Below, piece by piece: positions 3,679-63,815 of a DNA stretch of 64,000 bases. Source of the stretch: an uncultured Thermoanaerobaculia bacterium (lineage in GTDB: Bacteria > Acidobacteriota > Thermoanaerobaculia > Thermoanaerobaculales > Sulfomarinibacteraceae); the NCBI GenBank assembly GCA_964440565.1, contig CAYTTB010000003.1, forward strand, positions 70,353 through 134,352, read 5' to 3'. The notes under the pieces were generated by a model. That model worked only from the letters and a program-made list of their open reading frames with translations, was not told the DNA's origin and ran no database searches. Made by a program: the position numbers and the translations under genes. Within the stretch, counting starts at the first letter, position 1; the number at the start of each line of letters is the position of its first letter.

Positions 3679-4064
3679 TGTACGACGCGGGCAAGATCGT
3701 CCCGGGGATCGTGATCTTCCTGCTGCTCGCCACCCTGCCGGTGTGGTGGAGCCTGGCCTCGGGCCAGGAGGTGCGCGCGCCCCGTCTCGAGCTGCCGGAG
3801 GGGCAGCCGGGGTGCGTGGAGCCGGCCGCGCGGATGCGCGCGGTGCACATGGAGCTGCTCGACACCTGGCGGGACCAGGTCGTGCGGTCCGGCGACCGGA
3901 CCTTCGTCACCTGGGACGGCCGGCGGTACGAGAAGAGCCTCACGGGGACGTGCCTCGGCTGCCACGACGACACGACGACGTTCTGCGACCGCTGCCACGA
4001 CTACGTGGCGGTCTCCCCCTACTGCTGGCAGTGTCACGTGGCTCGGAAGGGGGGTGGGCGATGA
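3678..4064 (+). CDS. dsrJ: DsrJ, periplasmic tri-heme cytochrome c
   Basis: 128 aa with an N-terminal TM/signal and three CxxCH motifs (CLGCH, CDRCH, CWQCH). The ATG overlaps the dsrK stop. Confidence 0.85.
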   Translation: MYDAGKIVPGIVIFLLLATLPVWWSLASGQEVRAPRLELPEGQPGCVEPAARMRAVHMELLDTWRDQVVRSGDRTFVTWDGRRYEKSLTGTCLGCHDDTTTFCDRCHDYVAVSPYCWQCHVARKGGGR

Positions 4065-4822: not shown

Positions 4823-4823
4823 G

Positions 4824-5987: not shown

Positions 5988-5988
5988 G

Positions 5989-7653: not shown

Positions 7654-8705
7654 GCTCCCCCGGGGTGGTCATGGTGGGAGTCCACCACCGGGCGGCGGAG
7701 CCCGGCGCCGTGGAGCGTGCCCACCGGGCGGCCGGGGGCGCGGGCCTCGGCCCCGTCCTCGCGGCCGGCGCCGCGGGCGCGGTGGCGGTGGTGACCTGCC
7801 ACCGGGTGGAGCTGTACCTGGAGGGCTGCCCGGCGGTGCGCGCCCCGGAGCTGCTCCGGGCGTGGGGCGGGGCCGCGGCGGGCCGCCTGGTGGACGCGGG
7901 GGAGGTGGTGGTGCTGGCGGGCGAGGCCGCCGGACGGCACCTGCTGCGGGTCGCGGCCGGCCTCGAGGCGGCGGTGCTGGGCGACGACCAGGTGCTGGGC
8001 CAGGTCCGGGAGGCGTACGCCGCGGCGTGCCGCGCCCGCGCGGCAGGGCCGCTCGTGCACCGGCTGTTCCACGCCGCGTTCCGGGCCGGCAAGCGGGTGC
8101 GGTCCGAGACCGGCCTGGGCCGCGGCGGCCGCTCCCTGGCGGGGGTGGCGGCGGCGGAGATCGGGCGCCGCCTGGGGGGGCTGCGGGGGCGGTCGGTGCT
8201 GGTGCTCGGAGCGGGCGAGATGGCCTCGCTGACCGCGCGCCGCCTGGCGCGGCGCGGCGTCGGGCGGATCGTGGTGAGCAACCGCACGTCGGAGCGGGCC
8301 CGAGCGCTGGCCGCACGGGTGGGCGGCGAGGCGGTGCCCTGGTCGTGGCGGGTGGCGGCGCTTTCCGCGGCGGACGCGGTGGTGGTGGGCACCGCGGCGC
8401 GCGGGCCGGTGCTCGCCGCGGCGGAGCTCGCGGCCGCCGCCCGCCGGCGGGGCCGGCTGGTCGCCGTGGACCTCTCCATGCCGCGCAACCTGGAGCGGCC
8501 CGCCGGCCAGGTGCCCGGGCTCGAGGTGCTGGACCTCGAGGCGCTGGCCGGCTGTCTGGATGGGGAGCGGCGGCGCCGGGAGGGCGAGGTGCGGCGGGCG
8601 GAGCGGATCGTGGAGGAGGAGCTGAGCGCCTGGCTCGCGTGGGTCTCGGAGCGGGCGGCGCGGGAGGGCGGGGAACGGGGACGGCGCGGGCTGGCGGCGG
8701 GCTGA
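7650..8705 (+). CDS. hemA: Glutamyl-tRNA reductase
   Basis: Tail of ORF 6045..8705. Has the active-site motif TCHRVELY (TCNRxE family signature) and NADPH fold VLVLGAGEMA. GTG 7650 overlaps the previous stop; ATG 7671 is an alternative start. Confidence 0.8.
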   Translation: MSSPGVVMVGVHHRAAEPGAVERAHRAAGGAGLGPVLAAGAAGAVAVVTCHRVELYLEGCPAVRAPELLRAWGGAAAGRLVDAGEVVVLAGEAAGRHLLRVAAGLEAAVLGDDQVLGQVREAYAAACRARAAGPLVHRLFHAAFRAGKRVRSETGLGRGGRSLAGVAAAEIGRRLGGLRGRSVLVLGAGEMASLTARRLARRGVGRIVVSNRTSERARALAARVGGEAVPWSWRVAALSAADAVVVGTAARGPVLAAAELAAAARRRGRLVAVDLSMPRNLERPAGQVPGLEVLDLEALAGCLDGERRRREGEVRRAERIVEEELSAWLAWVSERAAREGGERGRRGLAAG

Positions 8706-8748
8706 GGACGGCGTCGCGGGACGGCGCGCGACGAGAGGGGGGGAGGAC

Positions 8749-52882: not shown

Positions 52883-54247
52883 TCATCCCCGGCCGTCCCC
52901 CGCGGGCAGCTCGATGCACACCTCGAGGCCACCGGCCGGCCGGTTGGCGGCGCGCACCGAGCCACCGTGGGCGCGCACCGCGGCCGCGGCGATGGCGAGA
53001 CCGAGGCCAGTTCCGCCGGGGCCGCGCCCCCGGTGGGCCTCCACCCGGAAGAACGGCCGGAACAGGTCCTCCAGGTGCTCCTCGGGGACGCCGGGGCCAC
53101 GGTCGGCCACGGTGACCACGGCCCGGCCTTCCGCCGCGCGGAGGCGCACCTCGACGGTGGTGCCGGGGGCGGTGTGGGCCACGGCGTTGCGGACCACGTT
53201 CTCCACCGCCGCGTGGAGCAGCCGGGGGTCGCCGGTGACGGTCACCGGCTCGAGGTGGGGCTCGAGACCCACGTCGCGGCCGGCGGCCTCGTACCGGGCG
53301 TCCTCCACCACCCCCTCCATCAGGTGGTGGAGCGCCACCGGCTCGCGCTGGAGCCCCCCGGCCCCGGCCTCGAGGCGCGAGAGGGTGAGCAGCTGCCCGA
53401 CGAGACCGTCGAGCCGTCCGGCCTCGAGGGCGATGCGGTCGAGGGCCGCGTCGCGCTCCGCGGGGTCGTCGGTCCGGGCGAGCTCGAGCGCGACGCCGAG
53501 CCGTGCCAGCGGCGACCGCAGCTCGTGCGAGACATCGCGGAGCAGGCGGCGCTGGGCCTCGAGAAGGCGCTCCAGACGTCCGGCCATGGCGTCGAAGTCG
53601 CGGGCGAGCTGCCCGAACTCGTCCCGCCGGCGGGTCAGCGGCTCGCCCACGCGGGCCGCGAGGTCGCCCGCGGCGAGACGTCGCGTGGCGGCGGAGAGCG
53701 GGCGCAGGGGTGCGGTGAGGCGCCGCGCCAGCACCGCAGCGATGAGGCCGAGGGCCACGAGCGCGAGTGCCAGGCGGGGGAGCAGGACGCGCGGCTCGAG
53801 CAGGTCGAGCGCGCCCGGCGGGCGCCGGACGGCCACCACCCCGACGAGGAGCCGTCCCCACGGATCGGTGGTGGCCAGGGCCGCGAGGTGGAGCGCGCCG
53901 GAACGGGCGGTCAGCACCTCGCCGGGGGAGGCGGCCGCCTCGCGCGCCAGTTCCGAGGCGGCGCGGGGGAGCCGGGGGCCGGCCAGCACCCGGCCGTCCG
54001 GGGTCGCGATCCATCCCGCGAGGCCGTGGCGCCGGCGCGGGCAGGGTGGCGGCCGGAGCTCCCCGCGCTCGATGCGGGCGGCCAGCAGCCGGACACGATG
54101 CCGCACCACCGCGGCGGCCCGGCGCTCCCAGCGGAGGACCCCGGGGCGGGTTCGGGTGAGCAGCGGCGAGGTGGCCACCAGCACCACCGCCACCGCGGCG
54201 GTCACCGCCCACAGCCAGAGGAAGATCCTGAGCGCGAGCCGGTTCAC
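52883..54247 (-). CDS. CpxA/BaeS-like envelope sensor histidine kinase
   Basis: Two TM helices, a HAMP domain, H-box DVSHELRSPL, and NAVAHT, DRGPGV and GTGLGLAI. Confidence 0.88.
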   Translation of the reverse strand: MNRLALRIFLWLWAVTAAVAVVLVATSPLLTRTRPGVLRWERRAAAVVRHRVRLLAARIERGELRPPPCPRRRHGLAGWIATPDGRVLAGPRLPRAASELAREAAASPGEVLTARSGALHLAALATTDPWGRLLVGVVAVRRPPGALDLLEPRVLLPRLALALVALGLIAAVLARRLTAPLRPLSAATRRLAAGDLAARVGEPLTRRRDEFGQLARDFDAMAGRLERLLEAQRRLLRDVSHELRSPLARLGVALELARTDDPAERDAALDRIALEAGRLDGLVGQLLTLSRLEAGAGGLQREPVALHHLMEGVVEDARYEAAGRDVGLEPHLEPVTVTGDPRLLHAAVENVVRNAVAHTAPGTTVEVRLRAAEGRAVVTVADRGPGVPEEHLEDLFRPFFRVEAHRGRGPGGTGLGLAIAAAAVRAHGGSVRAANRPAGGLEVCIELPAGDGRG

Positions 54248-54936
54248 CGGGCGCTCCCCGCCGGCCGGACGTACAGGTAGCCGACGCCCCGCACCGTCTT
54301 GATCCGCTCGCGGCCGTCGGGCAGGGGTCCGAGCTTGCGCCGCAACGCCGAGACGTGCACGTCGAGGCTGCGGTCGAAGGGCGACGGGCGTCGGCCCAGC
54401 ACCTCCCGGTACAGCGCCTCTCGGGTGACCACCGTGCCCGCGCGGCGCAGCAGCGCCTCGAGGAGGGAGAACTCGGCCCCGGTGAGCCGCACGGGCTCGC
54501 CCCCGCGGCGCACCTCGCGCGCACCGGGATCGAGCTCGAGGTCGCCGAGCGCGAGGAGCCCACCCGGGGCCCGCGGCTCGAGCCTGCGGAGGATCGCGCG
54601 GATCCGGGCCACGAGCTCCCGGGGGTTGAACGGCTTGGGCAGGTAGTCGTCGGCCCCCAGCTCCAGCCCCACGATCCGGTCCACGTCCTCGCCGCGCGCC
54701 GTGAGCATGATCACGGGGACGTCGGAGCGCGCCCGGAGGCGCCGGAGGACCTCGAACCCGTCCATCCCCGGCAGCATCACGTCCAGGACGACGAGGTCGG
54801 CGGCGCCGGAGACGGCGAGCCGGAGGCCCTCGGGTCCGTCGTGCGCGGCCGTCACCTCGAACCCCTCCCGCCCGAGCTGGCGGGCGAGCAGGTCGCCGAG
54901 CTCCGCGTCGTCGTCCACGATGAGGATCCTCGTCAC
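54244..54936 (-). CDS. OmpR/CpxR-family response regulator
   Basis: Contains ILIVDDD..VLDVMLPGMDG..LPKPF and the winged helix LTGAEFSLLEAL..VHVSALRRKL..GVGY. GTG 54936 is preferred over GTG 54984. Confidence 0.88.
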   Translation of the reverse strand: MTRILIVDDDAELGDLLARQLGREGFEVTAAHDGPEGLRLAVSGAADLVVLDVMLPGMDGFEVLRRLRARSDVPVIMLTARGEDVDRIVGLELGADDYLPKPFNPRELVARIRAILRRLEPRAPGGLLALGDLELDPGAREVRRGGEPVRLTGAEFSLLEALLRRAGTVVTREALYREVLGRRPSPFDRSLDVHVSALRRKLGPLPDGRERIKTVRGVGYLYVRPAGSAR

Positions 54937-54977
54937 GGCGTCCCCATTCTCGGGGGACCCGACCGCCGGACGCAACC

Positions 54978-55035
54978 TCTTCACGTTTCTTCAGGTTGCC
55001 TGCGGTCTTCTCGAGGTGTGCCTGTCATCTCTTCA
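54978..55035. promoter_or_regulatory. TCTTCA direct repeats in the divergent cpxR-like/cpxP-like control region
   Basis: TCTTCA at 54978, 54988 and 55030, plus TCTTCT at 55006. The first two are 10 bp apart, as expected for OmpR-family tandem sites. Confidence 0.3.
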
Positions 55036-55109
55036 CCCATCCCCGTCGTACAACGGGCGACGCGAGGGGGAACACCCCGAGCGGAACGGACGACCGAGGG
55101 AGGTGAACC

Positions 55110-55634
55110 ATGAGGCGAGGGACGACCACCACCGTGATGGCGGGAGCGCTGGCGGCGGCCATGGCCGCGGGGACGGCGCTCGCGGGGCCGGGCGGACCCG
55201 GCCGGCACGGGATGCACGGCCGGCGCGGGCCGCTCGTGGGTCTGCTGCGGGCGGTGCACCGGCTGGACCTCACCGAGGCGCAGCGGGAGAAAATCCGCGC
55301 CATCCTCGACGCGATCCGGCCGAAGCTCGAGACCGAGCGCCAGGCCCTGCGCGAGCTGCGCCGGCGCGCGATGGCCTCCGATCCGGCGAGCTTCGACGAG
55401 GCCGCGGTGCGGGCGCTGGCGCGCGAGCGCGCCAGGCACCGGGAGGAGATCGCGGTGACCGTCGCCAGGGCACGGGCCGACATCTTCCAGGTGCTCACGC
55501 CGGAGCAGCGGGAACGGCTCGAGGCGTGGCGGGCAGCCCGCGCCGAGCGGCGCCGGCGGATGCGCCAGTGCATGGAGGAGCTGGGGCCGCCCCCGTGGGC
55601 CGCGGACCCCGGGCCGGCGCCCGAGGCGCCGTGA
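55110..55634 (+). CDS. CpxP/Spy-family periplasmic protein
   Basis: Signal peptide, two LTxxQ motifs (LDLTEAQREKI, LTPEQRERL), helical and R/E-rich. Divergent from the RR/HK pair. Confidence 0.7.
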   Translation: MRRGTTTTVMAGALAAAMAAGTALAGPGGPGRHGMHGRRGPLVGLLRAVHRLDLTEAQREKIRAILDAIRPKLETERQALRELRRRAMASDPASFDEAAVRALARERARHREEIAVTVARARADIFQVLTPEQRERLEAWRAARAERRRRMRQCMEELGPPPWAADPGPAPEAP

Positions 55635-55650
55635 GCGGGGCCTTCCGTCG

Positions 55651-57069
55651 CTAGCCGCTCGCGCCCCGGCCCCCGCGCCGGGGCGTTCTGTTCGGGATCC
55701 GGGCGGTGACCGTGGTGCCGGCTCCGGGGGCGGTCACGATCTCGAGCGATCCGCCGTGGGCCTCGGCGATCCGGTGGGCGATGTACAGGCCGAGGCCGGT
55801 TCCGGCGCTGCCCTTCCCGGAGAAGAACGGGGTGGTGGCGGCGGCGGCCGTGGCCTCGTCCATGCCGGGCCCCGTGTCGCGGACCGCGAAGGCGACGCCG
55901 TCCTCCTCCGAACGGACGGTGACCACCACCTCGCCGCCCGCGTCGGCGACGGCGTCGAGGGCGTTCTCGAGCAGGTTGGCGAGCAGCGACTCGAGGGCGC
56001 GCGGGTCGGCCTCGAGGGCGACGGCGCCGGGATCCACCTCGAGGCGCAGGGAAACCCCGGCCTCCTCCGCGCGGTGCCGGAACCGGCGCACCGCCTCCTC
56101 GACGAGGCGGGCCGGGGAGAGGAGCCGGCGGTGCGGTTCCCGGTCCTTGGCGTGGTACAGGATGTCCAGCACCAGGGTGCGGATCCGGTCCACGTTGCGC
56201 CGCACCATCGCCCACCCCTCCTGGACGCGCCCGTCGTCGCCGCGCTCGAGACCGGTGCTCACGAGGTAGATGCCCCCGTCGAGCCCCGTCAGCACGCCCT
56301 TGACGTCATGGGCGATGCGGCCAACCAGCATGCCCAGCTCCTCCAGGCGGCCCTGCGCCTGGCGCAGCTCGGTGATGTCGGTGGACATCTCGATGACGCG
56401 TTCGGGAAGCTCCCCGGGACCGGGGAGAGGGGCGACGGTGACGAGCACCCGGCGGGGCTCGCCCGAGGCGGTCACCACGGTCTCCTCCGAGGTGTGCGGG
56501 AGGCCGTCGGCGAGGGTGGCGGCCACGGGGCAATCGAGGCATGGCTCGGTGCGCCGCTTGTACCACTCCCAGCAGCGGAGGCCGGGACGCTCCTCGGGCG
56601 CCCCGAACGTCTCGCGGGCGAGCCGGTTGGCGCGCAGGACGCGGAGGGCACGGTCCTGGACCGAGATGAAGCACGGGGCCTCCTCGAACAGCGCCTCGCA
56701 GGCGGCCTCGTCCCGGGAGACGGCGGCCCCCCTCACCTCCGTCAGGAGCACGCCCGCGGTGCGCCCGTCCTGGATCACGGGCCGCGCCTCCACCGCCACC
56801 GGGGCCGCCCTGCCGGGCAGCGGCTCGGTCCCCCGCACGGCGCGGCCCGTGGCCAGCGCGTCGCGGGCCGGGCACGCGGGACAGGGTTCCGCGCTGCCCC
56901 GGAGGTAGCGGTGGCACGGCACGCCGGCGGCAGGCCCCGCCGCCGCCTCGGTGGCGGGGTCCGCGGCCAGGACGCGGCGCTCGGGGTCGAGGAGGACGGC
57001 CGCCCGGCCGAGGGCGGCGAGCAGCGCCGCCGCCCCGATGGCGGGCGGCCGTCCCGGGGTGCCGGCCAT
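55651..57069 (-). CDS. Soluble histidine kinase with two Cys-rich PAS-like domains
   Basis: No TM helix. C-X10-C-X2-C-P occurs twice (CHRYLRGSAEPCPACP, CWEWYKRRTEPCLDCP). H-box RIAHDVKGVL, plus ENALDA, DTGPGM and GTGLGL. Confidence 0.85.
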   Translation of the reverse strand: MAGTPGRPPAIGAAALLAALGRAAVLLDPERRVLAADPATEAAAGPAAGVPCHRYLRGSAEPCPACPARDALATGRAVRGTEPLPGRAAPVAVEARPVIQDGRTAGVLLTEVRGAAVSRDEAACEALFEEAPCFISVQDRALRVLRANRLARETFGAPEERPGLRCWEWYKRRTEPCLDCPVAATLADGLPHTSEETVVTASGEPRRVLVTVAPLPGPGELPERVIEMSTDITELRQAQGRLEELGMLVGRIAHDVKGVLTGLDGGIYLVSTGLERGDDGRVQEGWAMVRRNVDRIRTLVLDILYHAKDREPHRRLLSPARLVEEAVRRFRHRAEEAGVSLRLEVDPGAVALEADPRALESLLANLLENALDAVADAGGEVVVTVRSEEDGVAFAVRDTGPGMDEATAAAATTPFFSGKGSAGTGLGLYIAHRIAEAHGGSLEIVTAPGAGTTVTARIPNRTPRRGGRGASG

Positions 57070-57072
57070 GGG

Positions 57073-58830
57073 CTAGCCCGCGGACACCGCGCTCTCCGGT
57101 GCCCTGGCCCGGTGGGCGGTCTCCAGGATTCGCCGCACGGTGAGCAGGAGCAGCTCGTGATGGATGGGCTTCTGAAGGTACCCCTCCGGGGCCGGGACCC
57201 GCCGCTGGTACATCAGGGTGCGGAAGTCCACCGCTCCGGTCACCACCACGACGGGGATCGAGGCGGTGGCGGCGTCCTCGCGGAGCCGCGCGAACAGGTC
57301 GGCGCCCGACCGGCCGGGCAGCGCGATGTCGAGGGTGATGAGGTCGGGCCGCTCGCGCCGTGCCAGGGCCAGCGCCTGGGCGGCGCTGCGCGCGGTGAGC
57401 GTACGCAGCCCGTGGTCCTCGAGCACCGTGGTGAGGTACGTGAGCGTGTCGCGGTCGTCCTCGACCACCAGGACCCGCCGGCCGCGGCACGCGGCGGGGA
57501 TGAGCTCCTGCGGTGCGACCTTGGACACGGGCAGGACCGTGGCGTCGGCGACGTACTCGCACACGTTGCGGACGGGGATGTTGATGTCGTAGTGCTTGAT
57601 GAGGTCGCCCAGCCCGTCCACGCAGTTGTGGCAGGCGGTGGCGACGGAGCGCGCGCCGGTGGCACGGATCTGGTCGGCCTTGACGCGGGCCACCTGCAGC
57701 CGGCGCTGGGCGTACTCCGACATGGACATGGCGCCGCCGCCGCCGGTGCAGCAGTAGTTCTCCTGACGGTTCGGGTGCATCTCGCGGAAGTCGAGGCAGG
57801 CGCGCTTGAGGAGGAACCGCGGCTCCTCGGTGATGCCGGCGGAGCGGGCCAGGTTGCACGGGTCGTGGTAGGTGACCGGCTCGGGGTTGGCGGTGGGGTC
57901 GAGGGTGATCCGGCCCTCGGTGACGTAGCGAACCATGGTCTCGAGGAAGCTCTCGATGGGGAACGGGAGGTCAACCTTGGCCCAGTTGGGGGCCTCCCAC
58001 TTGGTCGCGCGGAAGCCGTGGCCGCACTCCGAGATCACGACGCGCCGGACCCCGAGCTTCGCCGCCTGATCGTAGGCCAGCTTCCCCATGTGCGCCCCGA
58101 GGCGGTCGTCGCCCGAGAACAGGCCGAAGTTGGTGTTGTCCCAACCCACCGAGGGCATGGTCCAGTTCTCCCCGGCGGCGTGGAAGATCTTGGCCGCGGC
58201 CAGCAGCGACATGGGCGCGTACTTCACCTCGCGCGGGTTCACCAGGTACAGGACGTCGGCGCCCTCCCTGTCGATGGGGATGGCGGCCTCCGGGTCGCCG
58301 GTCTCGGCACGCAGCTCGTCCTGGAGCCACTCCAGGGTCTCCAGGTAGTCCTCCTGCGACACCCCCATCTGGTTGCCGGTCTCCCACTGGTCCCTGGCCA
58401 CGGCCTTGATCCCCTCCGGCGCGAACCCCTGCTCGAAGAGGGCGCCGCGGGCGAGGCGCATCACCAGCGCCGTGTCCACGCCGAAGGGGCAGGCCACCGT
58501 GCACCGGCGGCACATGGTGCAGGAGCCGTACACCACGTCCTGGAGGCGAGCGAGGTCGTCGTCGGTGGCGAGCGTGGCGCCGCCGACCCACCCCGGCGCC
58601 ACGCGTCCCAGCCAGTCCACGTGGTACTTGAAGATCTTGCGGACCTGGTCGGTCTTGGCGGCGGGGGTCATGGCGGGGTCGCCCGTGGCCAGGTAGTAGT
58701 GGCACGAGTCGTTGCACAGCCCGCAGTGGACGCAGGCGGCGAGCGAGAGAAGCGCCTGGCGGTTGATCCGGCTCGTGAAGGTCTTCACGACCGCCTCGGC
58801 GCGTGGGCTCGGTGTGGTTCGGTTCGCCAT
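57073..58830 (-). CDS. DsrK/HdrD/HmcF-like Fe-S CCG-domain oxidoreductase fused to a C-terminal receiver domain
   Basis: Contains CVHCGLCNDSCHYY, CTMCRRCTVACPFGVD, ECGHGF..HDPCNLAR and NYCCTGGGG..ACHNCVDG. The REC domain follows: VLVVEDD, ITLDIALPG, VVVVTG, LQKP. Confidence 0.88.
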   Translation of the reverse strand: MANRTTPSPRAEAVVKTFTSRINRQALLSLAACVHCGLCNDSCHYYLATGDPAMTPAAKTDQVRKIFKYHVDWLGRVAPGWVGGATLATDDDLARLQDVVYGSCTMCRRCTVACPFGVDTALVMRLARGALFEQGFAPEGIKAVARDQWETGNQMGVSQEDYLETLEWLQDELRAETGDPEAAIPIDREGADVLYLVNPREVKYAPMSLLAAAKIFHAAGENWTMPSVGWDNTNFGLFSGDDRLGAHMGKLAYDQAAKLGVRRVVISECGHGFRATKWEAPNWAKVDLPFPIESFLETMVRYVTEGRITLDPTANPEPVTYHDPCNLARSAGITEEPRFLLKRACLDFREMHPNRQENYCCTGGGGAMSMSEYAQRRLQVARVKADQIRATGARSVATACHNCVDGLGDLIKHYDINIPVRNVCEYVADATVLPVSKVAPQELIPAACRGRRVLVVEDDRDTLTYLTTVLEDHGLRTLTARSAAQALALARRERPDLITLDIALPGRSGADLFARLREDAATASIPVVVVTGAVDFRTLMYQRRVPAPEGYLQKPIHHELLLLTVRRILETAHRARAPESAVSAG

Positions 58831-58846
58831 GGTGTCCTCCCGGGGA

Positions 58847-59521
58847 TCAGGCGGCGTGACGCGGGACCGCCTTGGGCGGGTACACGCCGCGGTGGCCGAA
58901 GTGCTTGCCGATGTAGAAGCGGATGAACGGCCAGTAGATGTAATGAGAGATCTTGGAGAACGGGACGTACACGAGGAAGAACGCGGTGAGCGCGAAGAAC
59001 GCCACGATGGCCGGCTCGCTGGTCTGAGGAGCGGCGGCGATACCCGCCGCGAGCCACGCTGCCAGCATCGCGAGCGAGAAGTAGTCGTCGGGGGTCGAGA
59101 TGCGCCGCATCTCGGGCCGCACGATCCGCCGCACGAGGCGCACGAGCGCCGCGGCGAGCCCGAGAGCGAACACCGCCCGGAGGACCGCCACCGCCGCCGG
59201 CGAGGCGATGGCGTGCGGCCAGTAGGGCATGATGAAGGTCACCGCGATGGCGACGGCCACGGCCAGGTGGAACACCGCGAACTCCACCCACCGGAACCAG
59301 TGGACCCTGGTGCTCGGCAGCTCCCACGGCATGGCCAGGGTGGCGTACGCGTACCGGATCGCCGCGCCGTGGTCGCCGCGGGGCGGGGTGCGCTCCGCCG
59401 CGGCCGGACGCCGGAGGATCCAGCGGATCTTGAGAGCGTACACCGTGGCCATGAACGCCAGCGCGACGAGCTGGACCTCGTCCATGAGCACCTCGGTGAA
59501 CGGTGAGACGTGGATCGGCAT
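58847..59521 (-). CDS. NarI/DsrM/HmcE-like membrane cytochrome b subunit
   Basis: 224 aa with about 5 TM helices, conserved His in the helices, and VPFSKISHYIYWPF (compare DsrM FPFSKLVHMGG). Confidence 0.75.
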   Translation of the reverse strand: MPIHVSPFTEVLMDEVQLVALAFMATVYALKIRWILRRPAAAERTPPRGDHGAAIRYAYATLAMPWELPSTRVHWFRWVEFAVFHLAVAVAIAVTFIMPYWPHAIASPAAVAVLRAVFALGLAAALVRLVRRIVRPEMRRISTPDDYFSLAMLAAWLAAGIAAAPQTSEPAIVAFFALTAFFLVYVPFSKISHYIYWPFIRFYIGKHFGHRGVYPPKAVPRHAA

Positions 59522-59546
59522 CGAAGCTCCTCCCTTCGTCGGGCGT

Positions 59547-60026
59547 TCAGAGGGGGCCTCCCGGAGGGCTGACCACCGGCAGGCCGAGCCGCGCCACCTC
59601 CGCGGTGGTGCGGCGGATCCAGGCCGGATCCAGCAGATCGGCCAGGGTGAACCCGTGCAGCACCTCGGCGATCCGCCGGTCGATGAGGGCGTACACCAGC
59701 CGGCACTCGCAGTACGGCGACCTGAGGCAGGCGTCGGGGGTCTCGATGCAGTCCACCAGCGAGATGGGCCCGCTGGCTGCCTCGATGATCTCGCCGAGGG
59801 TGATCGCTCCCGGGTCGCGGGTGAGGCGGAAGCCGCCGCCCCGGCCCTGCACGCCGCGCAGCAGCCGCGCGTTGCGCAGTGCCAGCGCGAGCTGCTCCAG
59901 GTAGCCGCGGGAGATGTCGGTGCGGGCGGCCACGTCGCGCAGCGGGACCGGGCGGCCGTCGCGGCCGTTCTTGGCGATGTCCAGCATCATCCGGAGGGCG
60001 TAGCGGGCGCGGGTGTTGAGCCTCAC
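59547..60026 (-). CDS. Rrf2-family transcriptional regulator with Cys cluster
   Basis: Contains MRLNTRARYALRMMLDIA, the wHTH ISRGYLEQLALALR and VDCIETPDACLRSPYCEC. GTG start. Confidence 0.9.
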   Translation of the reverse strand: MRLNTRARYALRMMLDIAKNGRDGRPVPLRDVAARTDISRGYLEQLALALRNARLLRGVQGRGGGFRLTRDPGAITLGEIIEAASGPISLVDCIETPDACLRSPYCECRLVYALIDRRIAEVLHGFTLADLLDPAWIRRTTAEVARLGLPVVSPPGGPL

Positions 60027-60032
60027 GGCCCG

Positions 60033-60095
60033 AATATGCCGCCGGAAATATTAGTTGTCAAGTAGGAATACTCAGTTTATATCGATTCTCGATTC
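60033..60095. promoter_or_regulatory. AT-rich divergent control region with inverted and tandem repeats (probable Rrf2 operator and promoters)
   Basis: AATAT-N10-ATATT at 60033-60052, the imperfect palindrome ATATTAGTTG..CAGTTTATAT, and the tandem TCGATTC TCGATTC at 60082-60095. This is the most AT-rich stretch in the window. Confidence 0.4.
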
Positions 60096-60187
60096 CAGGG
60101 AACCACCGAGCTTGCGCGTTCCCCCCTCGGGCGCTAGATTGGGGAAAACAGCGGGGCGAGCGGGGGGGCGCCCGGCGAGGAGGCGCC

Positions 60188-60583
60188 ATGGCGCGACGGA
60201 TCGCGGTGGTGGTGGACGACGAGCCGGACGAGGCGACCTACCTGGCGACGGTGCTGCGCGATCACGGCTGGCGGGTCGAGGTGGCCCACGACGCCGCGGC
60301 GGGGCTCGAGGCGATCCGGAAGCTCCGGCCGGGCGTGGTGCTCCTCGACGTGATGATGCCGGACCGGGGCGGGTTGTCGGCGCTGGCCGAGATCCGCCGC
60401 GATCCGGGGCTCGCCGGTACCCGGGTCGTGCTGGTCACCGGGATCCAGGAGGGGCTGACGGCCGACTTCGGCGGGTTCCTGGAGCGCTTCCGGCGGCTGG
60501 GGCCGGACGGCTACCTGGAGAAGCCCGTCGCGCCGGAGGAGCTGCTCGAGGCGGTGGAGGGGGAGCCCGCCCCGGCGCGGTAG
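60188..60583 (+). CDS. Single-domain CheY-like response regulator
   Basis: Contains AVVVDDEPDE, VLLDVMMPD, VLVTG and LEKP. Confidence 0.88.
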   Translation: MARRIAVVVDDEPDEATYLATVLRDHGWRVEVAHDAAAGLEAIRKLRPGVVLLDVMMPDRGGLSALAEIRRDPGLAGTRVVLVTGIQEGLTADFGGFLERFRRLGPDGYLEKPVAPEELLEAVEGEPAPAR

Positions 60584-60612
60584 GCCCGCGCCGGGGCGCG
60601 GCCGCGCGTGGT

Positions 60613-61071
60613 TCAGGGCCGGAACCGGTTCTCCACCAGCGGCGCCGCGTCCGTCTGGGGGACGTGGCAGGAGACGCAGAGGTAGCGGCGGCCGTCGAGC
60701 GCGCCGTCCGCGAGGTGGCTGGCCGGGATCGCCGGGGCGCCCGCGTCGGCGGCGTTCTCGGCCACGTGGCAGCCCGTGCAGGCGTTCTCCTCGCGGGTGA
60801 TGGGCAGCATCCCGTCCACCGAGTGGGGGACGACCGGCGGCGCCTCCGGGTGGGCGGCGGGGCGCGGGGTGGCCTCGCCGGGCTCGGCGCTCACGGGGTG
60901 GGCCGGGACCACGCCCGGTGAGACGAGGACGTCCGCCGACCGCAGGCCGATCCGGGAGTCGGGGATCGGGGCGGGGCGGGGCGCGGCGGCGGGGGGCGCC
61001 GCCGGGGGCGGCGCGGCGGTGCAGGCGGCCAGGACCAGCAGGGCGGCGGTGGCGAGCGCGGCGCGGCTCAT
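60613..61071 (-). CDS. napB: NapB-like di-heme cytochrome c, predicted lipoprotein
   Basis: Two CxxCH motifs (CTGCH, CVSCH), lipobox LLVLAAC and a Pro/Ala-rich linker. The ATG overlaps the napA stop (ATGA). Confidence 0.8.
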
Positions 61072-63815
61072 GCGGCACCTCCCTCGGCGGCGCGGTCCGG
61101 GACCACCCGGACGGCGCACTTCTTGAAGTCGGTCTCCTTGGAGATGGGGCAGGTGGCGTCCAGCGTCACCTTGTTGATGATGACGTTCTCGTCGAACCAG
61201 GGGACGAAGACGAGCCCGCGCGGCACGCGGTTGCGGCCGCCGGTGCGGATCACGGCCCGGACCCTCCCGCGGCGGGACTCGACCCAGGCCGGGTCGCCGT
61301 CGGCCAGCCCCCGCGCCCGGGCGTCCTCGGGGTGCATCCAGATCACCGCGTGCGGGAACGCCGCGTTGAGCTCCGGCACCCGCCGGGTCATGGTGCCGGT
61401 GTGCCAGTGCTCCAGCACCCTGCCGGTGCACAGCCACAGGTCGTAGCGATCGTCCGGACTCTCCGCCGGGGCGGCGTACGGGCGGAAGAAGATCTTGGCC
61501 TTGCCCGCCACCGACACCTTCTCGGGCCCCGAGGGGCCGGCGAGGGTGCCGCGCGGGACCCTCTTGAGGGCGGGGCCGTAGAACTCGAACCCCTTGCCCT
61601 TGCCGACGTACGGGTCGTACGCCTCGTTGAACCGCCAGCGGGTCTCCGTGCCGTTCACCACCGGCCAGCGGAGCCCCCGGACGTCGTCGCGGTAGTAGGT
61701 GTCGAAGGGCGCCAGGTCGTGCCCGTGGCCGAGCCCGAACCTCCGGTACTCCTCGAACAGCGCCTTCTCCGGGAACCAGTCGATCCCGGCGGCCTCCACG
61801 GTGGCGTTGCGGCGGCCCCTGGCCACCGGGTCAGGCCACCGGTGCGAGCGCGCCTCGGGGGTGGCGAAGAGGACGTCGTACAGGGTGTCGTCGGGCGAGT
61901 ACCCCATCCGGCGCGCCGCCTCCAGCACGTCGGGCAGCCCTCCCTCGAGGCCCGGCACGCGCTGGGCGCCCCACACCTCGCGGAGCCGGAACCGCTTGGC
62001 GAACTCCATGATCTGCCACAGGTCGGTCCGCGCCTCGCCGGGCGGGTCGATCACCTGCCGCCACGCCTGGGTGCGGCGCTCGGTGTTCCCGTAGAGTCCC
62101 CACTTCTCGAAGTGCATCGCCGAGGGGAGGATCAGATCGGCCACCTTGCACGAGAAGGTGGGGTACACGTCGGAGACCACGATGAACACGTCGCGCTCGC
62201 GCGCCGCCCTGAGCCAGTGGTTGGCGTTGGCGGTGGACTGGAACGGGTTGGTGACCTGGACCCAGAGCCAGCGGATCGTCCCGTCCTCGATGTCGCGCAT
62301 CATCTTGGTGATGTGGCTGCCCACCTTGGGGTTGAGGGTCCCCGAGGGGAGCCGCCAGATCTCCTCCGCCCGCCGCCGGTGCTCGGGGTTGGCCACCACC
62401 ATGTCCGCCGGCAGCCGGTGGGCGAAGGTTCCCACCTCGCGCGCGGTGCCGCACGCCGAGGGCTGGCCGGTGAGCGAGAACGCGCTGCAGCCGGGACGCG
62501 CGTACTTGCCCGTGAGCAGGTGGACCATGTACGCCTGCTCGTTGACCCAGGTGCCGCGGGTGTGCTGGTTGAACCCCATGGTCCAGAACGAGACGATCTT
62601 CCGCTTCGGGTCGGCGTACAGGTCGGCGAGGGTCTCGAGCTTCTTCCGGAACCGCTCGAGCGGCTCGTCGGGGTCGCCCTTGGCCAGCCGTGAGACGAAC
62701 TCCAACGTGTACGGCTCGAGCGCCCGCTTCAGGTCCTCGAGCTCGATGAGCCAGTGGGCGCCGGCCTTCCCCCGGTGGCGCTGCTCCACGACGTGGGCGG
62801 CGTCGGGGTCGAGCCCCTGGGCGATGGCCTCCTCCCGGGTCAGACGGACGCGGCGCTCGCGCTCGAGCGTGTCCCGCTCCTCGGGGAACGCCCTGGAGGC
62901 ATCGGCCCGCATCCCGTACCCGATGTCCGTGGGCCCCGTGGCGAGGACGCAGTGGCGGCGGACGAACTCCCAGTCCACCGCGTCGCGGGCGATGATCTCG
63001 CGAGCGATGTAGTTCCAGATGGCGAGGTCGGTCTGGGGCCGGATCACGAGCTCGAGATCGGCGCCGTCCGAGGTGCGGTTGGAGTAGGTGGTGAGGTTCA
63101 CCACCCGCACATGGGGGTTGGCCAGCCGGTGAGCCACGACCCGTGACCACAGCATCGGGTGCATCTCGGCCATGTTGGAGCCCCAGGTGACGATGGCGTC
63201 GGTGAGCTCGATGTCGTCGTAGCACCCGGCGGGCTCGTCGATGCCGAACACCTGGATGAACGCCGCCACCGCCGAGGCCATGCAGTGGCGGGCGTTGGGA
63301 TCGATGTTGTTGGAGCGCCATCCGGCCTTGACCAGCTTCACCGCGGCGTATCCCTCCGGGATGGTGTACTGGCCCGAGCCCATGATCGCGACACCGGTGG
63401 GCCCCAGCTCGCGGTAGACGCGCTTGAACTGGCACTCCATCTCGTCGAAGGCGCGCTCCCAGGAGACCGGGGTGAACTCGCCCTCGGGGTGGTAGCGTCC
63501 GTCCTTCATCCGGAGCAGCGGCCGGGTCAGCCGGTCGGCACCGTAATGGATCTCGGGGTTGGCGTACCCCTTCACGCAGAGCAGCCCGCGGTTGACGGGG
63601 CTCTCGGGATCGCCCTTCACCGCCACCACCCGCCCGTCGCGGACCGCGACCTGGATCCCGCAGCCCACCCCGCAGAAGCGGCACACACCCTTCTCCCAGC
63701 TCGCCCCCGCCGCGGGATCCTCGGCCCGGACGGGGAGCGGGATCCTCACCGCGGCGGCGGTGGCGGCGGCCACGCCGCCCACGATCACCTCGCGCCGTGA
63801 CAGTCCGTCTCGCAT
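61068..63815 (-). CDS. napA: Periplasmic nitrate reductase catalytic subunit
   Basis: Tat signal SRREVIVGG and the 4Fe-4S motif CRFCGVGCG. Also [15 protein letters not shown] and a Mo-bisMGD enzyme layout. RBS AAGGAGGG. Confidence 0.93.

What the first reader, a model, noticed from the sequence alone, without database searches (positions are those of the whole stretch)
55651..60583. DsrK/HdrD-like CCG oxidoreductase covalently fused to a complete receiver domain, in an rrf2 - cytochrome b - CCG::REC - Cys-rich PAS kinase operon
**The fusion.** The 585-aa product of 57073..58830 (-) has the full DsrK/HdrD layout.
- It has two ferredoxin-type motifs, CVHCGLCNDSCHYY and CTMCRRCTVACPFGVD.
- It has two CCG-type halves, ECGHGF..HDPCNLAR and NYCCTGGGG..ACHNCVDG. 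These are colinear with the bona fide DsrK at 2071..3678.
- It then runs without a stop into a CheY-like receiver of about 125 aa. The receiver keeps every catalytic residue: the VVEDD acidic pair, the phospho-acceptor Asp in ITLDIALPG, Thr in VVVVTG and Lys in LQKP.

**The neighbours.**
- Upstream is a NarI/DsrM/HmcE-like cytochrome b.
- Upstream of that is an Rrf2 regulator with a C-x6-C-x5-C-x-C motif, as in Fe-S-binding Rrf2 proteins.
- Three nt downstream is a TM-less histidine kinase.
- A lone CheY is transcribed divergently.

**Interpretation.** In the Desulfovibrio vulgaris hmc operon, hmcE (cytochrome b) and hmcF (HdrD-like) are followed by separate rrf1 (response-regulator-like) and rrf2 genes. 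Here the receiver is part of the redox subunit itself. That suggests either phosphorylation-gated menaquinol:thiol/disulfide electron transfer, or a membrane redox module recruited as a signalling device. I know of no characterised CCG-domain enzyme controlled by an in-cis receiver.
Basis: partly seen in the sequence, partly recalled or inferred. Interest (0 to 1): 0.8.

Follow-up and report, generated by a model that had tools for sequence, protein, structure and literature searches.

The report
Receiver-fused HmcF-like iron-sulfur reductase cassette
A membrane-linked iron-sulfur reductase of the type that feeds electrons to sulfite reduction carries a built-in two-component receiver switch and sits next to its own kinase; this gene cassette is real, occurs in hundreds of uncultured bacterial species, has apparently never been studied, and may show how bacteria switch a respiratory enzyme on and off by phosphorylation.

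Summary
ORF 57073..58830(-) encodes two 4Fe-4S motifs, one complete CCG motif and a canonical receiver (REC) in one frame.

It is not an assembly artefact. At least 585 species-level genomes from about 15 phyla encode full-length fused relatives at 51-77% identity.

The flanking genes are conserved:
- an HmcE/TmcC-like cytochrome b lies directly upstream in 78/78 loci;
- a soluble kinase with two PAS domains, each with a conserved Cys motif, lies directly downstream in 70/75;
- a free DVU0259-type receiver follows in 42/72;
- an Fe-S-type Rrf2 lies upstream in 31/75.

The cassette often sits among dsrAB, DsrMK-like, sat and aprAB genes. The closest non-REC relatives carry a DsrC-like domain where this family has REC.

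Best reading (inferred): an HmcEF/DsrMK-like quinol-linked reductase acting on a DsrC-type partner, gated by phosphorylation of its own receiver. Main rival: the redox module is the sensory input of the two-component system.

I found no paper describing it. Databases have carried the architecture under generic names, so it is an uncharacterised variant of known parts, not a new kind.

The parts
59547..60026 (-). Rrf2-family transcription factor, first gene of the operon. It has a probable Fe-S-binding motif, C93-x6-C100-x5-C106-x-C108.
   Evidence: - Pfam Rrf2 scores 112 bits against a cut-off of 30.
- NCBIfam rrf2_super is above its cut-off; the CymR, IscR and NsrR equivalog models are below theirs.
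- C93, C100 and C106 are invariant in 39 cassette-linked homologues.
- An Rrf2 gene lies upstream of the cassette in 31/75 related loci.
58847..59521 (-). HmcE/TmcC-like membrane protein of the NarI superfamily, with five predicted transmembrane helices. It is a putative cytochrome b with only two invariant His (H85, H193).
   Evidence: - NCBIfam HmcE E 1.6e-11 and TmcC E 2.6e-11, both nearly full length but below cut-off.
- Pfam Nitrate_red_gam E 0.0016, below cut-off.
- hhalign to a DsrM-like family gives 97% probability and aligns H193 with an invariant DsrM His.
- Hydropathy predicts five hydrophobic helices.
- A homologue lies directly upstream of the fusion in 78/78 loci.
57073..58830 (-). 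HmcF/TmcB/DsrK-superfamily iron-sulfur (CCG) protein fused at its C-terminus to a receiver domain. This is the core of the finding.
   Evidence: - Pfam finds Fer4_8, CCG and Response_reg.
- NCBIfam scores: HmcF 315, TmcB 313, DsrK 251 bits.
- More than 3000 database hits; nearly all of the top 120 are about 570-590 aa with the same three domains.
- AlphaFold2 model: mean pLDDT 86.6, pTM 0.73.
58477..58743 (-). Ferredoxin-like region (aa 30-118) with two CxxCxxCxxxC motifs: C33/36/39/43 and C104/107/110/114.
   Evidence: Pfam Fer4_8 covers this region. All eight Cys are invariant in 86 sequences.
57622..57876 (-). Complete CCG motif (aa 319-403): C325-x34-C360C361-x38-C400-x2-C403. This is the presumed site of the catalytic non-cubane [4Fe-4S] cluster.
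   Evidence: - Pfam CCG scores 47 bits against a cut-off of 20.6.
- The five Cys are invariant.
- Foldseek matches M. smegmatis EtfD (9ojn, E 1e-17) and HdrB chains (5odc_B, 7bkb_B).
57481..57540 (-). Variable linker (aa 431-450) between the CCG body and the receiver. There is no stop or frameshift.
   Evidence: - The reading frame is continuous.
- pLDDT is below 50 at residues 437-440.
- The junction is spanned by full-length homologues in at least 80 species-level genomes.
57136..57474 (-). Receiver (REC) domain, aa 453-565. It has the acidic pair E457/D458, the phospho-acceptor D501, T531, the aromatic switch Y551 and K554.
   Evidence: - Pfam Response_reg E 3.6e-19.
- The best NCBIfam match is the DVU0259/DivK family, 76.6 bits.
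- Residue conservation is shown.
- The best PDB match is Caulobacter DivK (1m5t by sequence, E 1e-15; 1mav by fold, TM 0.89 normalised to the target).
55651..57069 (-). Soluble histidine kinase with two PAS domains, a DHp domain with H254 and a HATPase_c domain. Each PAS domain carries the motif C-Y-x3-K-x-R-x3-C-x2-C-P plus an upstream Cys.
   Evidence: - Pfam finds PAS_4 twice and HATPase_c.
- In 66 cassette-linked kinases, C52, C63 and C66 are present in 98%, and C133, C166, C177, C180 and H254 in 100%.
- A homologue lies directly downstream of the fusion in 70/75 loci.
60188..60583 (+). Single-domain receiver ('lone CheY'), transcribed divergently. It is a paralogue of the fused receiver.
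   Evidence: - Pfam Response_reg E 3.4e-20.
- 41% identity to the fused REC over 120 aa, the closest REC in the window.
- It shares the sequence DDxPD..TYL.TVL.DHG in the region after the acidic pair; I assign this to helix alpha-1 by analogy with other receivers.
- A free REC follows the kinase in 42/72 related loci, and a divergent upstream REC occurs in 9/85.
60033..60061 (-). Sigma-70-like promoter match (TTGACA-17-CATATT) inside an AT-rich island, just upstream of rrf2.
   Evidence: It is the only promoter-like match in 55000..61200, where shuffled sequence gives 0.1 on average. The sequence was read. This is a consensus match only.

Best explanation
The four co-directional genes rrf2, cytochrome b, CCG::REC and kinase, together with the divergent free receiver, form one module: a two-component system whose output domain is a respiratory-type redox enzyme.

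**The enzyme.** The small membrane protein (HmcE/TmcC-like) and the HmcF-like iron-sulfur protein form a DsrMK/HmcEF-type complex. It moves electrons between the menaquinone pool and a cytoplasmic thiol, disulfide or trisulfide substrate at the CCG cluster. The substrate is most likely a DsrC-family protein.

**The switch.** The soluble kinase senses a cytoplasmic redox or oxygen signal through two PAS domains, each with a conserved Cys motif and probably binding a metal or Fe-S cluster. It phosphorylates D501 of the receiver tethered to the enzyme, and also the paralogous free receiver. Phosphorylation changes how the receiver packs against the CCG body, and so opens or closes electron flow or substrate access.

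**Extension to other complexes.** In many genomes the free receiver would act in the same way in trans on an adjacent DsrMK-like complex. Rrf2, where present, adds transcriptional control.

**Shown:** the domain anatomy, the intact catalytic and phosphorylation residues, the conserved gene order, the linkage to dissimilatory sulfur genes, and the sister family with a DsrC-like domain.

**Inferred:** the substrate, the direction of signal flow, and the gating itself.
For: 1. The effector domain of this response regulator is the oxidoreductase. Some loci with full 6-kb flanks (L022, L028) contain only cytochrome b, fusion and kinase. Those flanks hold no second receiver and no Rrf2, the only regulator types my query set could detect.
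2. The Fe-S, CCG and REC functional residues are all under strong constraint. The family is tight: 51-77% identity across about 15 phyla, and a single full-length representative at 50% clustering. This suits an enzyme with a working switch.
3. The kinase carries its own conserved candidate sensor sites and an invariant H-box His, so a separate sensor input exists.
4. Gene order is fixed: cytochrome b in 78/78, kinase in 70/75, free REC in 42/72.
5. The fused and free receivers are paralogues. They share the conserved stretch after the acidic pair and the unusual region between the conserved Thr and Lys. This is consistent with one kinase serving both.
6. Link to dissimilatory sulfur metabolism. 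A dsr, apr or sat relative lies within 6 kb in 23/85 loci. These include bona fide dsrA/dsrAB (L003, L005, L024, L041), aprAB (L005, L085), and sat on the same strand upstream of the cytochrome b (L010, L030, L048, L072, L081). REC followed by DsrM-like and DsrK-like genes comes after the cassette in L032, L038, L048, L056, L063, L064 and L072.
7. The closest non-REC relatives (47% identity) carry a DsrC-like domain at the same C-terminal position, again with a NarI-like cytochrome b upstream.
8. From established knowledge, not tested here: DsrK reduces the DsrC trisulfide with electrons from DsrM, and HmcF and TmcB are its paralogues. In D. vulgaris the hmc operon ends with rrf1 (a receiver) and rrf2, and the tmc genes neighbour DVU0258-0260.
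Against: - There is no biochemical evidence for phosphotransfer, for enzyme activity, or for any effect of one on the other.
- The tools gave no model coordinates or PAE. pTM 0.73 therefore says nothing about whether REC contacts the active site.
- The cytochrome b keeps only two invariant His (H85, H193). If it has NarI-like topology, both lie on the cytoplasmic side, which supports one bis-His heme. That suits a non-energy-conserving 'sampling' device as well as it suits a respiratory enzyme.
- All HmcF, TmcB and DsrK equivalog cut-offs are missed, so the substrate may differ.
- The DsrC-like domains of the sister family lack the C-terminal Cys arm. They may be regulatory partners rather than substrates.
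- Most loci (62/85) show no sulfur-metabolism gene within 6 kb.
Confidence: 0.45

Rival explanations
1. The redox module is the sensor, not the output. The cytochrome b and CCG protein sample the menaquinone pool, or a cytoplasmic thiol/trisulfide such as DsrC. They pass that state to the two-component system. They could do so by reducing or oxidising the conserved Cys sites of the kinase PAS domains, with the fused receiver docking the kinase onto the reductase. Alternatively, they could change the phosphorylation behaviour of the tethered receiver. The real outputs would then be the free receiver (acting like DivK by protein-protein contacts) and Rrf2.
For: - The cytochrome b has only two invariant His, which points to a single heme. 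The cassette has no periplasmic cytochrome c partner. Both features fit a non-energy-conserving sensor.
- The kinase PAS domains carry an invariant C...C-x2-C motif that could be a dithiol/disulfide substrate for a CCG-type disulfide reductase.
- Genomes with the cassette often also encode a separate DsrMK-type complex, so the fused one may not be needed for catalysis.
- The receiver is most similar to DivK-type single-domain regulators, which act allosterically on kinases.
- Precedent from established knowledge: ArcB and RegB read the quinone pool through Cys chemistry.
Against: - Sensor inputs are normally fused to kinases, not to receivers.
- Minimal loci (L022, L028) show no second receiver or Rrf2 next to the three genes, so no output is visible there.
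- The complete five-Cys CCG site and both ferredoxin clusters are as conserved as in true enzymes.
Confidence: 0.3
2. The module is a general redox or oxygen regulator, unrelated to sulfur metabolism specifically. It would tune anaerobic respiration more broadly, for example the adjacent NapAB nitrate reductase in this window. The CCG enzyme would act on some other disulfide or small molecule.
For: - NapB and NapA lie 30 nt beyond the lone receiver gene.
- 62/85 related loci show no dsr, apr or sat gene within 6 kb.
- The protein misses all the HmcF, TmcB and DsrK equivalog cut-offs.
- CCG proteins act on varied substrates (EtfD, LutA, GlpC and HdrB matches).
Against: - No NapA relative was found in any of the other loci, so the Nap adjacency is not conserved.
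- Sulfur-gene adjacency (23/85 within 6 kb) is far above my rough expectation of 1-2% for a random gene. That expectation is an estimate, not a computation.
- The sister family carries a DsrC-like domain.
- This window's organism has a full DsrMKJOP operon.
Confidence: 0.13
3. The receiver is only a phosphate sink or a structural appendage. Phosphorylation, if any, drains the kinase or scaffolds the complex, and does not alter the enzyme.
For: - Branched systems with several receivers per kinase are common (established knowledge). A second, free receiver is present in most loci.
- The linker is variable and predicted to be disordered.
Against: - A sink does not need covalent fusion to one particular enzyme, kept across about 15 phyla.
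- The switch residues T531 and the aromatic at 551 are conserved as well as the phospho-acceptor site.
Confidence: 0.1
4. The fusion is an assembly or annotation artefact: a missed stop codon or frameshift joining two genes.
For: None found.
Against: - The frame is continuous.
- An identical 585-aa protein occurs on an independent JGI contig (P0001).
- At least 80 species-level genomes and more than 100 metagenome clusters carry the same full-length architecture.
Confidence: 0.01

Closest known systems
HmcE/HmcF with Rrf1 and Rrf2 of the Desulfovibrio vulgaris hmc operon (established knowledge, plus NCBIfam models NF045711 and NF045716)
   Same: - The set of parts matches: an HmcE-like membrane protein, an HmcF-like Fe-S/CCG protein, a receiver-only protein and an Rrf2 regulator.
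- HmcF and HmcE are the best-scoring NCBIfam models.
   Different: - The receiver is covalently fused to the HmcF-like protein.
- HmcA-D (the 16-heme cytochrome c and its partners) are absent.
- A dedicated PAS kinase is part of the operon.
- Scores are far below the equivalog cut-offs (315 against 750; 44 against 275).
- The cytochrome b has only two invariant His.
TmcB/TmcC and the neighbouring DVU0258-DVU0260 two-component genes (NCBIfam NF045724, NF045723, NF045717)
   Same: - TmcB (313 bits) and TmcC score about as well as HmcF and HmcE.
- The fused receiver's best family model is the DVU0259/DivK family.
- The free receiver next to a DsrMK-like pair in a related locus scores 111 bits to the same model.
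   Different: - All scores are below cut-off (76.6 against 160 for the receiver).
- There is no TmcA cytochrome c3 and no TmcD.
- The parts are fused rather than neighbouring.
DsrMK of the DsrMKJOP complex (menaquinol-linked DsrC-trisulfide reductase)
   Same: - Same two-subunit logic and the same cluster motifs.
- 28% identity and colinear with this window's own DsrK.
- The cassette is often adjacent to DsrMK-like genes and to dsrAB.
   Different: - It is a distinct clade: 251 bits against the DsrK cut-off of 400.
- The membrane subunit is smaller (224 aa against 330 aa).
- It carries a receiver domain.
Sister family: HmcF-like CCG protein fused to a DsrC-like domain (P0122 and relatives, mostly Chloroflexota; uncharacterised)
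   Same: - 47% identity over residues 18-435.
- A NarI-like cytochrome b lies directly upstream.
- The extra domain is attached at the same C-terminal position.
   Different: - The appendage is DsrC-like (Pfam PF04358, 57.7 bits), not a receiver.
- No kinase is adjacent.
- The DsrC-like domain lacks the C-terminal Cys arm.
Response regulators with enzymatic or protein-binding outputs (CheB, PleD, RssB; DivK as a single-domain example)
   Same: - A canonical receiver controls a non-DNA-binding output.
- The receiver is closest in sequence and fold to DivK.
   Different: - The output here is a multi-cluster Fe-S oxidoreductase bound to a membrane cytochrome. I found no characterised example.
- The receiver is C-terminal to the effector, not N-terminal.
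Mycobacterial EtfD and methanogen HdrD/HdrB (solved CCG structures)
   Same: EtfD (9ojn) is the best structural match to the N-terminal 440 residues (E 1e-17). HdrB chains also match.
   Different: - In EtfD the cytochrome b is part of the same polypeptide, and there is no receiver.
- HdrB and HdrD have two complete CCG motifs. This protein has one.

Membership tests
DsrK/HmcF/TmcB superfamily (CCG-type Fe-S subunits of quinone-linked membrane complexes) | Two ferredoxin-type CxxCxxCxxxC motifs | tested here: met
   C33/36/39/43 and C104/107/110/114 are invariant in 86 sequences. Pfam Fer4_8 covers the region.
DsrK/HmcF/TmcB superfamily (CCG-type Fe-S subunits of quinone-linked membrane complexes) | One complete C-terminal CCG motif, Cx(n)CCGx(m)CxxC | tested here: met
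   The motif is C325-x34-C360C361-x38-C400-x2-C403, with all five Cys invariant. Pfam CCG scores 47 bits against a cut-off of 20.6.
DsrK/HmcF/TmcB superfamily (CCG-type Fe-S subunits of quinone-linked membrane complexes) | Adjacent gene for a NarI-type membrane partner | tested here: met
   An HmcE/TmcC-like gene lies 16 nt upstream. It is present in 78/78 related loci.
HmcF, TmcB or DsrK in the strict sense (NCBIfam equivalogs) | Score above the curated whole-protein cut-off | tested here: not met
   HmcF 315 against 750, TmcB 313 against 735, DsrK 251 against 400. The window's true DsrK scores 738.
HmcF, TmcB or DsrK in the strict sense (NCBIfam equivalogs) | Operon partners with periplasmic cytochrome c or Fe-S subunits (HmcA-D, TmcA/D, DsrJOP) | tested here: not met
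   None is present in the cassette here or in the related loci examined.
HmcF, TmcB or DsrK in the strict sense (NCBIfam equivalogs) | Reduction of a DsrC trisulfide or disulfide | not testable with these tools
   There is only indirect support: linkage to dsr genes and the sister family fused to a DsrC-like domain.
Response-regulator receiver domain (PF00072) | Profile match above the gathering score | tested here: met
   69.4 bits against 30.2, aligned to positions 1-110 of 111 in the model.
Response-regulator receiver domain (PF00072) | Acidic pair, phospho-acceptor Asp, Thr/Ser, aromatic switch and Lys | tested here: met
   The residues are E457/D458, D501, T531, Y551 and K554. Conservation is 1.00 for D458, 0.99 for D501, 0.84 for T531 and 0.99 for K554.
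Response-regulator receiver domain (PF00072) | A cognate histidine kinase, and phosphotransfer from it | tested here: inconclusive
   A kinase with invariant H254 lies 3 nt downstream, and one is present in 70/75 loci. Phosphotransfer itself cannot be tested with these tools.
DVU0259/DivK-family single-domain receivers (NF045717) | Score above the curated cut-off (160 bits), and a stand-alone domain | tested here: not met
   It is the best-matching model, but at 76.6 bits for the fused REC and 53 bits for the lone CheY. The fused REC is not stand-alone.
NarI/DsrM-type di-heme cytochrome b | Pfam Nitrate_red_gam above the gathering score | tested here: not met
   18.6 against 22.9 bits. Homology is still supported by the HmcE/TmcC hits and by hhalign at 97%.
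NarI/DsrM-type di-heme cytochrome b | Four conserved His ligands, two on each of two helices, for two b hemes | tested here: not met
   Only H85 and H193 are invariant in 81 sequences. There are five predicted transmembrane helices. At most one bis-His heme is supported.
Fe-S-cluster Rrf2 regulators (IscR/NsrR/RirA type) | Rrf2 fold plus three conserved C-terminal Cys | tested here: met
   Pfam Rrf2 scores 112 bits. C93, C100 and C106 are invariant in 39 homologues. All specific equivalog cut-offs are missed.

The most novel reading that the evidence does not exclude
Two-component phosphorylation may directly gate electron delivery to DsrC-type carriers. On this reading, DVU0259/Rrf1-type receivers are phospho-dependent regulators of DsrK/HmcF/TmcB-type CCG subunits. 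They act in cis in this fused family, and in trans at DsrMK-like, Hmc and Tmc complexes. If so, dissimilatory sulfite or sulfate reduction would be switched post-translationally at the membrane complex, in hundreds of lineages outside the classical sulfate reducers.
Probability: 0.3. Interest if true: 0.85.

Novelty: new variant of a known kind. Interest (0 to 1): 0.62.

Why it matters
**An old open question.** Receiver-only proteins sit next to the Hmc and Tmc complexes of sulfate reducers (Rrf1, DVU0259). Their job has been unclear since the hmc operon was sequenced. A covalent fusion of such a receiver to the HmcF-like subunit is a 'Rosetta stone'. It argues that the receiver's partner is the CCG subunit itself.

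**It makes the idea testable.** The fusion gives a defined protein, a defined phospho-acceptor (D501) and a defined kinase to work with.

**Why the answer would matter.** If phosphorylation gates the enzyme, this would be a clear case of a respiratory electron-transfer complex controlled directly by a two-component system rather than through transcription.

**Ecological reach.** The cassette occurs in at least 585 species-level genomes, and the best 80 matches are all MAGs. They include Acidobacteriota, Gemmatimonadota, Planctomycetota, Zixibacteria, Ignavibacteria and NC10. It is often placed among dsr, apr and sat genes. It could therefore help to explain how these poorly understood carriers of dsr genes switch sulfur respiration on and off, for instance in response to oxygen. 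It could also serve as a genomic marker.

Tried and rejected
- **Frameshift or missed stop at the junction:** rejected. The frame is continuous, and the fusion is conserved in more than 80 genomes and on an independent contig.
- **Functional link to the adjacent NapAB:** rejected as a conserved feature. NapA was a query in the neighbourhood scan and hit none of the other loci.
- **Filing the protein as HmcF, TmcB or DsrK:** rejected, because all equivalog cut-offs are missed.
- **Di-heme NarI-type assignment for the membrane subunit:** not supported. Only two His are invariant, and the Pfam hit is below threshold.
- **Operator-like inverted repeat in the rrf2/cheY intergenic region:** none found by the repeat tool. 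By eye there is only an imperfect AATAT...ATATT pair.
- **Domain orientation from AlphaFold2:** the tools return no coordinates or PAE, so the REC/CCG interface could not be examined.
- **Literature:** ten full-text searches found no description of a CCG or DsrK-type protein with a receiver domain.
- **Papers not held:** Mussmann et al. 2005 is probably the source of the 2005-era annotation CAJ31188.1; that attribution is from memory. It is not held, and neither is Galperin's 2006 response-regulator census.
- **Strict GC3-based gene caller for the whole window:** it dropped real genes such as DsrK, so I used all-ORF phmmer scans instead.

Full report

Yes. The ORF list gives exactly the five genes described:
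- kinase 55651..57069(-);
- fusion 57073..58830(-);
- membrane protein 58847..59521(-);
- Rrf2 59547..60026(-);
- a divergent single-domain receiver 60188..60583(+).

The four minus-strand genes are separated by 25, 16 and 3 nt. They follow the only sigma-70-like promoter match in the region (60061..60033), which lies in an AT-rich island in this roughly 75% G+C sequence.

Pfam places Fer4_8 (aa 30-118), CCG (aa 319-403) and Response_reg (aa 453-565, E 3.6e-19) on the 585-aa product. The protein is colinear with the window's own DsrK at 28% identity over 444 aa. That DsrK is a true DsrK: it scores 738 bits against a cut-off of 400 and sits in a full DsrMKJOP operon.

**2. Is the fusion an artefact?**

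No.
- A protein search returned more than 3000 hits. Nearly all of the top 120 are about 570-590 aa and carry Fer4, CCG and Response_reg together. One is an identical protein on an independent contig.
The best 80 all match the query from about residue 5 to about residue 575.
- These are all MAGs, from labels that span about 15 phyla. They include Thermodesulfobacteriota, NC10, Ignavibacteria and other Bacteroidota, Acidobacteriota, Zixibacteria, Gemmatimonadota, Planctomycetota, Myxococcota, Elusimicrobiota, Sumerlaeota, Spirochaetota and Fibrobacterota. One search adds Armatimonadota and Latescibacterota.
- Identity to the query stays at 51-77%.
- In a library clustered at 50% identity, the whole family collapses into one full-length representative (P0121) plus fragments.

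So this is a tight, strongly constrained family. It has probably spread horizontally, although that is an inference.

**3. Anatomy of the fused protein.**

In alignments of 13, 74 and 86 members:
- all eight Cys of the two ferredoxin motifs are invariant;
- so are C269, C325, C360, C361, C400 and C403.

The last five form one complete CCG motif, C325-x34-CC-x38-CxxC. The 'first half' keeps only C269. From memory, this matches what is described for DsrK-type proteins.

The receiver keeps the acidic pair (E457 in the window, D in relatives; D458 invariant), the phospho-acceptor D501 (0.99), T531 (0.84), an aromatic at position 551 and K554 (0.99).

AlphaFold2 with the 74-sequence alignment gives pLDDT 86.6 and pTM 0.73, with a disordered linker at residues 437-440. 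Foldseek matches the N-terminal body to M. smegmatis EtfD (E 1e-17) and to HdrB chains. It matches the C-terminal domain to DivK, with TM 0.89 on the target. DivK is also the best PDB hit by sequence. No coordinates were available, so I could not inspect the interface between the domains.

**4. Which known proteins is it closest to?**

NCBIfam ranks HmcF (315 bits) about equal with TmcB (313) and ahead of DsrK (251). For the receiver it ranks the DVU0259/DivK family first (76.6 bits). All are far below the curated cut-offs.

The membrane protein hits HmcE and TmcC over nearly their full length (E about 1e-11, also below cut-off). Its family aligns to a DsrM-like family at 97% probability, through the conserved PF(S/T)x(I/M)xH segment.

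The membrane protein has five predicted transmembrane helices but only two invariant His, H85 and H193. If the topology is NarI-like, both lie on the cytoplasmic side. That supports one bis-His heme, not the two of NarI. This is an inference from sequence.

**5. The neighbourhood is the most informative result.**

I called ORFs in 85 non-duplicate related loci and searched them with the window's proteins and with reference dsr, apr and sat proteins taken from two loci.

| Feature | Loci |
|---|---|
| Cytochrome b directly upstream of the fusion | 78/78 |
| PAS kinase directly downstream | 70/75 |
| Single-domain receiver right after the kinase | 42/72 |
| Rrf2 upstream | 31/75 |
| Divergent upstream receiver (the window's layout) | 9/85 |

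- The divergent-receiver layout is seen, for example, in the 77%-identical Acidobacteria locus L001/L002.
- Some loci with full flanks (L022, L028) show only the three core genes.

A dsr, apr or sat relative lies within 6 kb in 23/85 loci:
- bona fide dsrAB or dsrA in L003, L005, L024 and L041 (about 700-970 bits);
- aprAB in L005 and L085;
- sat upstream of the cytochrome b on the same strand in L010, L030, L048, L072 and L081.

In L005 the cassette sits inside a complete sulfate-reduction gene cluster. The order there is:
- dsrBA, on the opposite strand;
- DsrM-like, DsrK-like, REC;
- a MerR-like gene;
- cytochrome b, CCG::REC, kinase;
- an OmpR-type regulator;
- sat, aprB, aprA and a qmoA-like gene.

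In L003 the cassette is followed by dsrA, dsrB, a CbiA-family gene (dsrN-like), a pyridine-nucleotide oxidoreductase (dsrL-like) and dsrC.

In L032, L038, L048, L056, L063, L064 and L072 the order is cytochrome b, CCG::REC, kinase, REC, DsrM-like, DsrK-like. The DsrK-like proteins in these pairs score 312 bits to the DsrK model, below its cut-off of 400. Their neighbouring receiver scores 111 bits to the DVU0259 family.

NapA, which abuts the cassette in this window, was found in none of the other loci. That adjacency is incidental.

**6. The kinase and the receivers.**

In 66 cassette-linked kinases, both PAS domains carry the motif C-Y-x3-K-x-R-x3-C-x2-C-P.
- The three Cys of PAS1 are present in 98%, and those of PAS2 in 100%.
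- Each domain also has an upstream Cys. In PAS2 this is C133, invariant. The PAS1 equivalent is Cys in 70% of members but R22 in the window.
- The H-box His254 is invariant.

This is a candidate metal, Fe-S or dithiol sensor site. The comparison with NreB-type [4Fe-4S] PAS sensors is from memory and was not tested.

The fused receiver and the free receivers are paralogues. In the window they share 41% identity. They share the conserved stretch after the acidic pair, which I assign to helix alpha-1 by analogy, and an unusual segment between the conserved Thr and Lys. Both features are consistent with one kinase serving both. That is an inference from the known role of alpha-1 in kinase-receiver specificity.

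**7. A sister family gives a mechanistic hint.**

The closest relatives without a receiver (P0122 and about 80 database clusters, mostly Chloroflexota, 47% identity over residues 18-435) carry a DsrC-like domain. It scores 57.7 bits to Pfam PF04358 (cut-off 24.9). It is attached at the same C-terminal position where this family has REC.

These genes also have a NarI-like cytochrome b directly upstream. In one genome a free DsrC-like gene follows. The DsrC-like domains lack the C-terminal Cys arm, so they may be partners rather than substrates. They still tie this branch of the CCG superfamily to DsrC-type proteins. They also show that its C-terminus is a place where partner domains are attached.

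**8. How it most likely works.**

I favour this reading, at confidence 0.45. The module is a two-component system whose output is the enzyme. The kinase senses, D501 is phosphorylated, and the tethered receiver gates a DsrMK/HmcEF-like electron path between menaquinol and a DsrC-type substrate. The free receiver does the same in trans on neighbouring DsrMK-like complexes. Rrf2 adds transcriptional control.

The main rival, at 0.30, reverses the flow. The one-heme cytochrome b and the CCG protein would form a redox sensor that acts on the kinase, perhaps on its Cys sites. The free receiver and Rrf2 would be the outputs.

Lesser rivals are a regulator not specific to sulfur (0.13), a phosphate sink or scaffold (0.10), and an artefact (0.01).

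None of these can be separated without biochemistry. The decisive experiments are listed separately.

**9. Novelty.**

Ten full-text searches found no paper that describes a CCG or DsrK-type protein with a receiver.

The architecture is not new to databases, however. PGAP calls these proteins 'response regulator', and JGI calls them 'Fe-S oxidoreductase/CheY-like chemotaxis protein'. One older entry (CAJ31188.1 / UniRef100_Q3IBN9, from an uncultured organism) is named 'Reductase, iron-sulfur binding subunit containing response regulator receiver'. From memory, that accession belongs to the sulfate-reduction fosmids of Mussmann et al. 2005. The paper is not held, so I could not check whether it discusses the gene.

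I therefore rate the finding as a new, uncharacterised variant of known kinds. It combines a DsrMK/HmcEF-type module with a two-component system. Its value lies in its breadth, its conservation, its link to sulfur respiration and the testable hypothesis it offers.

Noticed in passing
P0122 and relatives; loci L088:5301-8057 and L089:5338-7689: A sister family, mostly in Chloroflexota/Dehalococcoidia, fuses the same HmcF-like CCG protein to a C-terminal DsrC-like domain that lacks the Cys arm. A NarI-like cytochrome b lies upstream, and in L088 a free DsrC-like gene lies downstream. One variant (P0315, 755 aa) also carries GAF domains. The family appears uncharacterised.
   Followed up: partly
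L005:3037-6023; L004:921-3862; also L032, L038, L048, L056, L063, L064, L072, L080: DsrM-like and DsrK-like pairs (DsrK model 312 bits, below its cut-off of 400) are repeatedly accompanied by a DVU0259-type single-domain receiver. They are often placed right after the cytochrome b - CCG::REC - kinase cassette. This looks like a split version of the same pairing of receiver and CCG protein.
   Followed up: partly
window 58847..59521: The cassette's cytochrome b family keeps only two invariant His (H85, H193), plus invariant M24, Y28, R128, R132, D145/D146 and K190. It may therefore bind one heme rather than the two of NarI or DsrM.
   Followed up: partly
window 55651..57069: The window's kinase departs from its family at three otherwise conserved positions. 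It has R22 where 70% of members have the upstream Cys of PAS1. It has V374 and G379 where 98% and 97% have Cys and His, in the ATPase domain.
   Followed up: no
window 1079..10536: A complete DsrMKJOP operon:
- DsrM 1079-2071 and DsrK 2071-3678;
- a 128-aa DsrJ called on the matching JGI contig;
- DsrO ending at 4822 and DsrP 4824-5987.

It is followed by a pyridine nucleotide-disulfide oxidoreductase (5989-7653), a glutamyl-tRNA reductase and a siroheme synthase (8749-10536). An RsbRD_N-domain gene precedes DsrM.
   Followed up: partly
window 60613..63815: NapB (the Pfam NapB match covers the C-terminal part of ORF 60613..61437; the true start is probably near 61078) and NapA (61068..63815) run convergently with the lone receiver gene. 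This adjacency is not conserved in related loci.
   Followed up: yes
window 52883..55634: A CpxP/Spy-like LTXXQ protein (55110..55634, +) lies next to an OmpR-type regulator (54244..54984, -) and a HAMP histidine kinase (52883..54247, -). This looks like a CpxRA/CpxP-type envelope-stress unit, separate from the cassette.
   Followed up: no
window 60033..60105: An AT-rich island in a roughly 75% G+C sequence holds the only sigma-70-like promoter match, and an imperfect AATAT-N10-ATATT pair that overlaps the -10 element. This could be an Rrf2 operator, but the repeat tool did not confirm it.
   Followed up: partly
P0126, P0143: Some relatives of 660-670 aa carry an N-terminal extension of about 250 aa joined to the CCG protein in one polypeptide. 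In P0143 it matches the NarI-like cytochrome b model (Nitrate_red_gam), the layout seen in mycobacterial EtfD. In P0126 the extension had no Pfam match.
   Followed up: no
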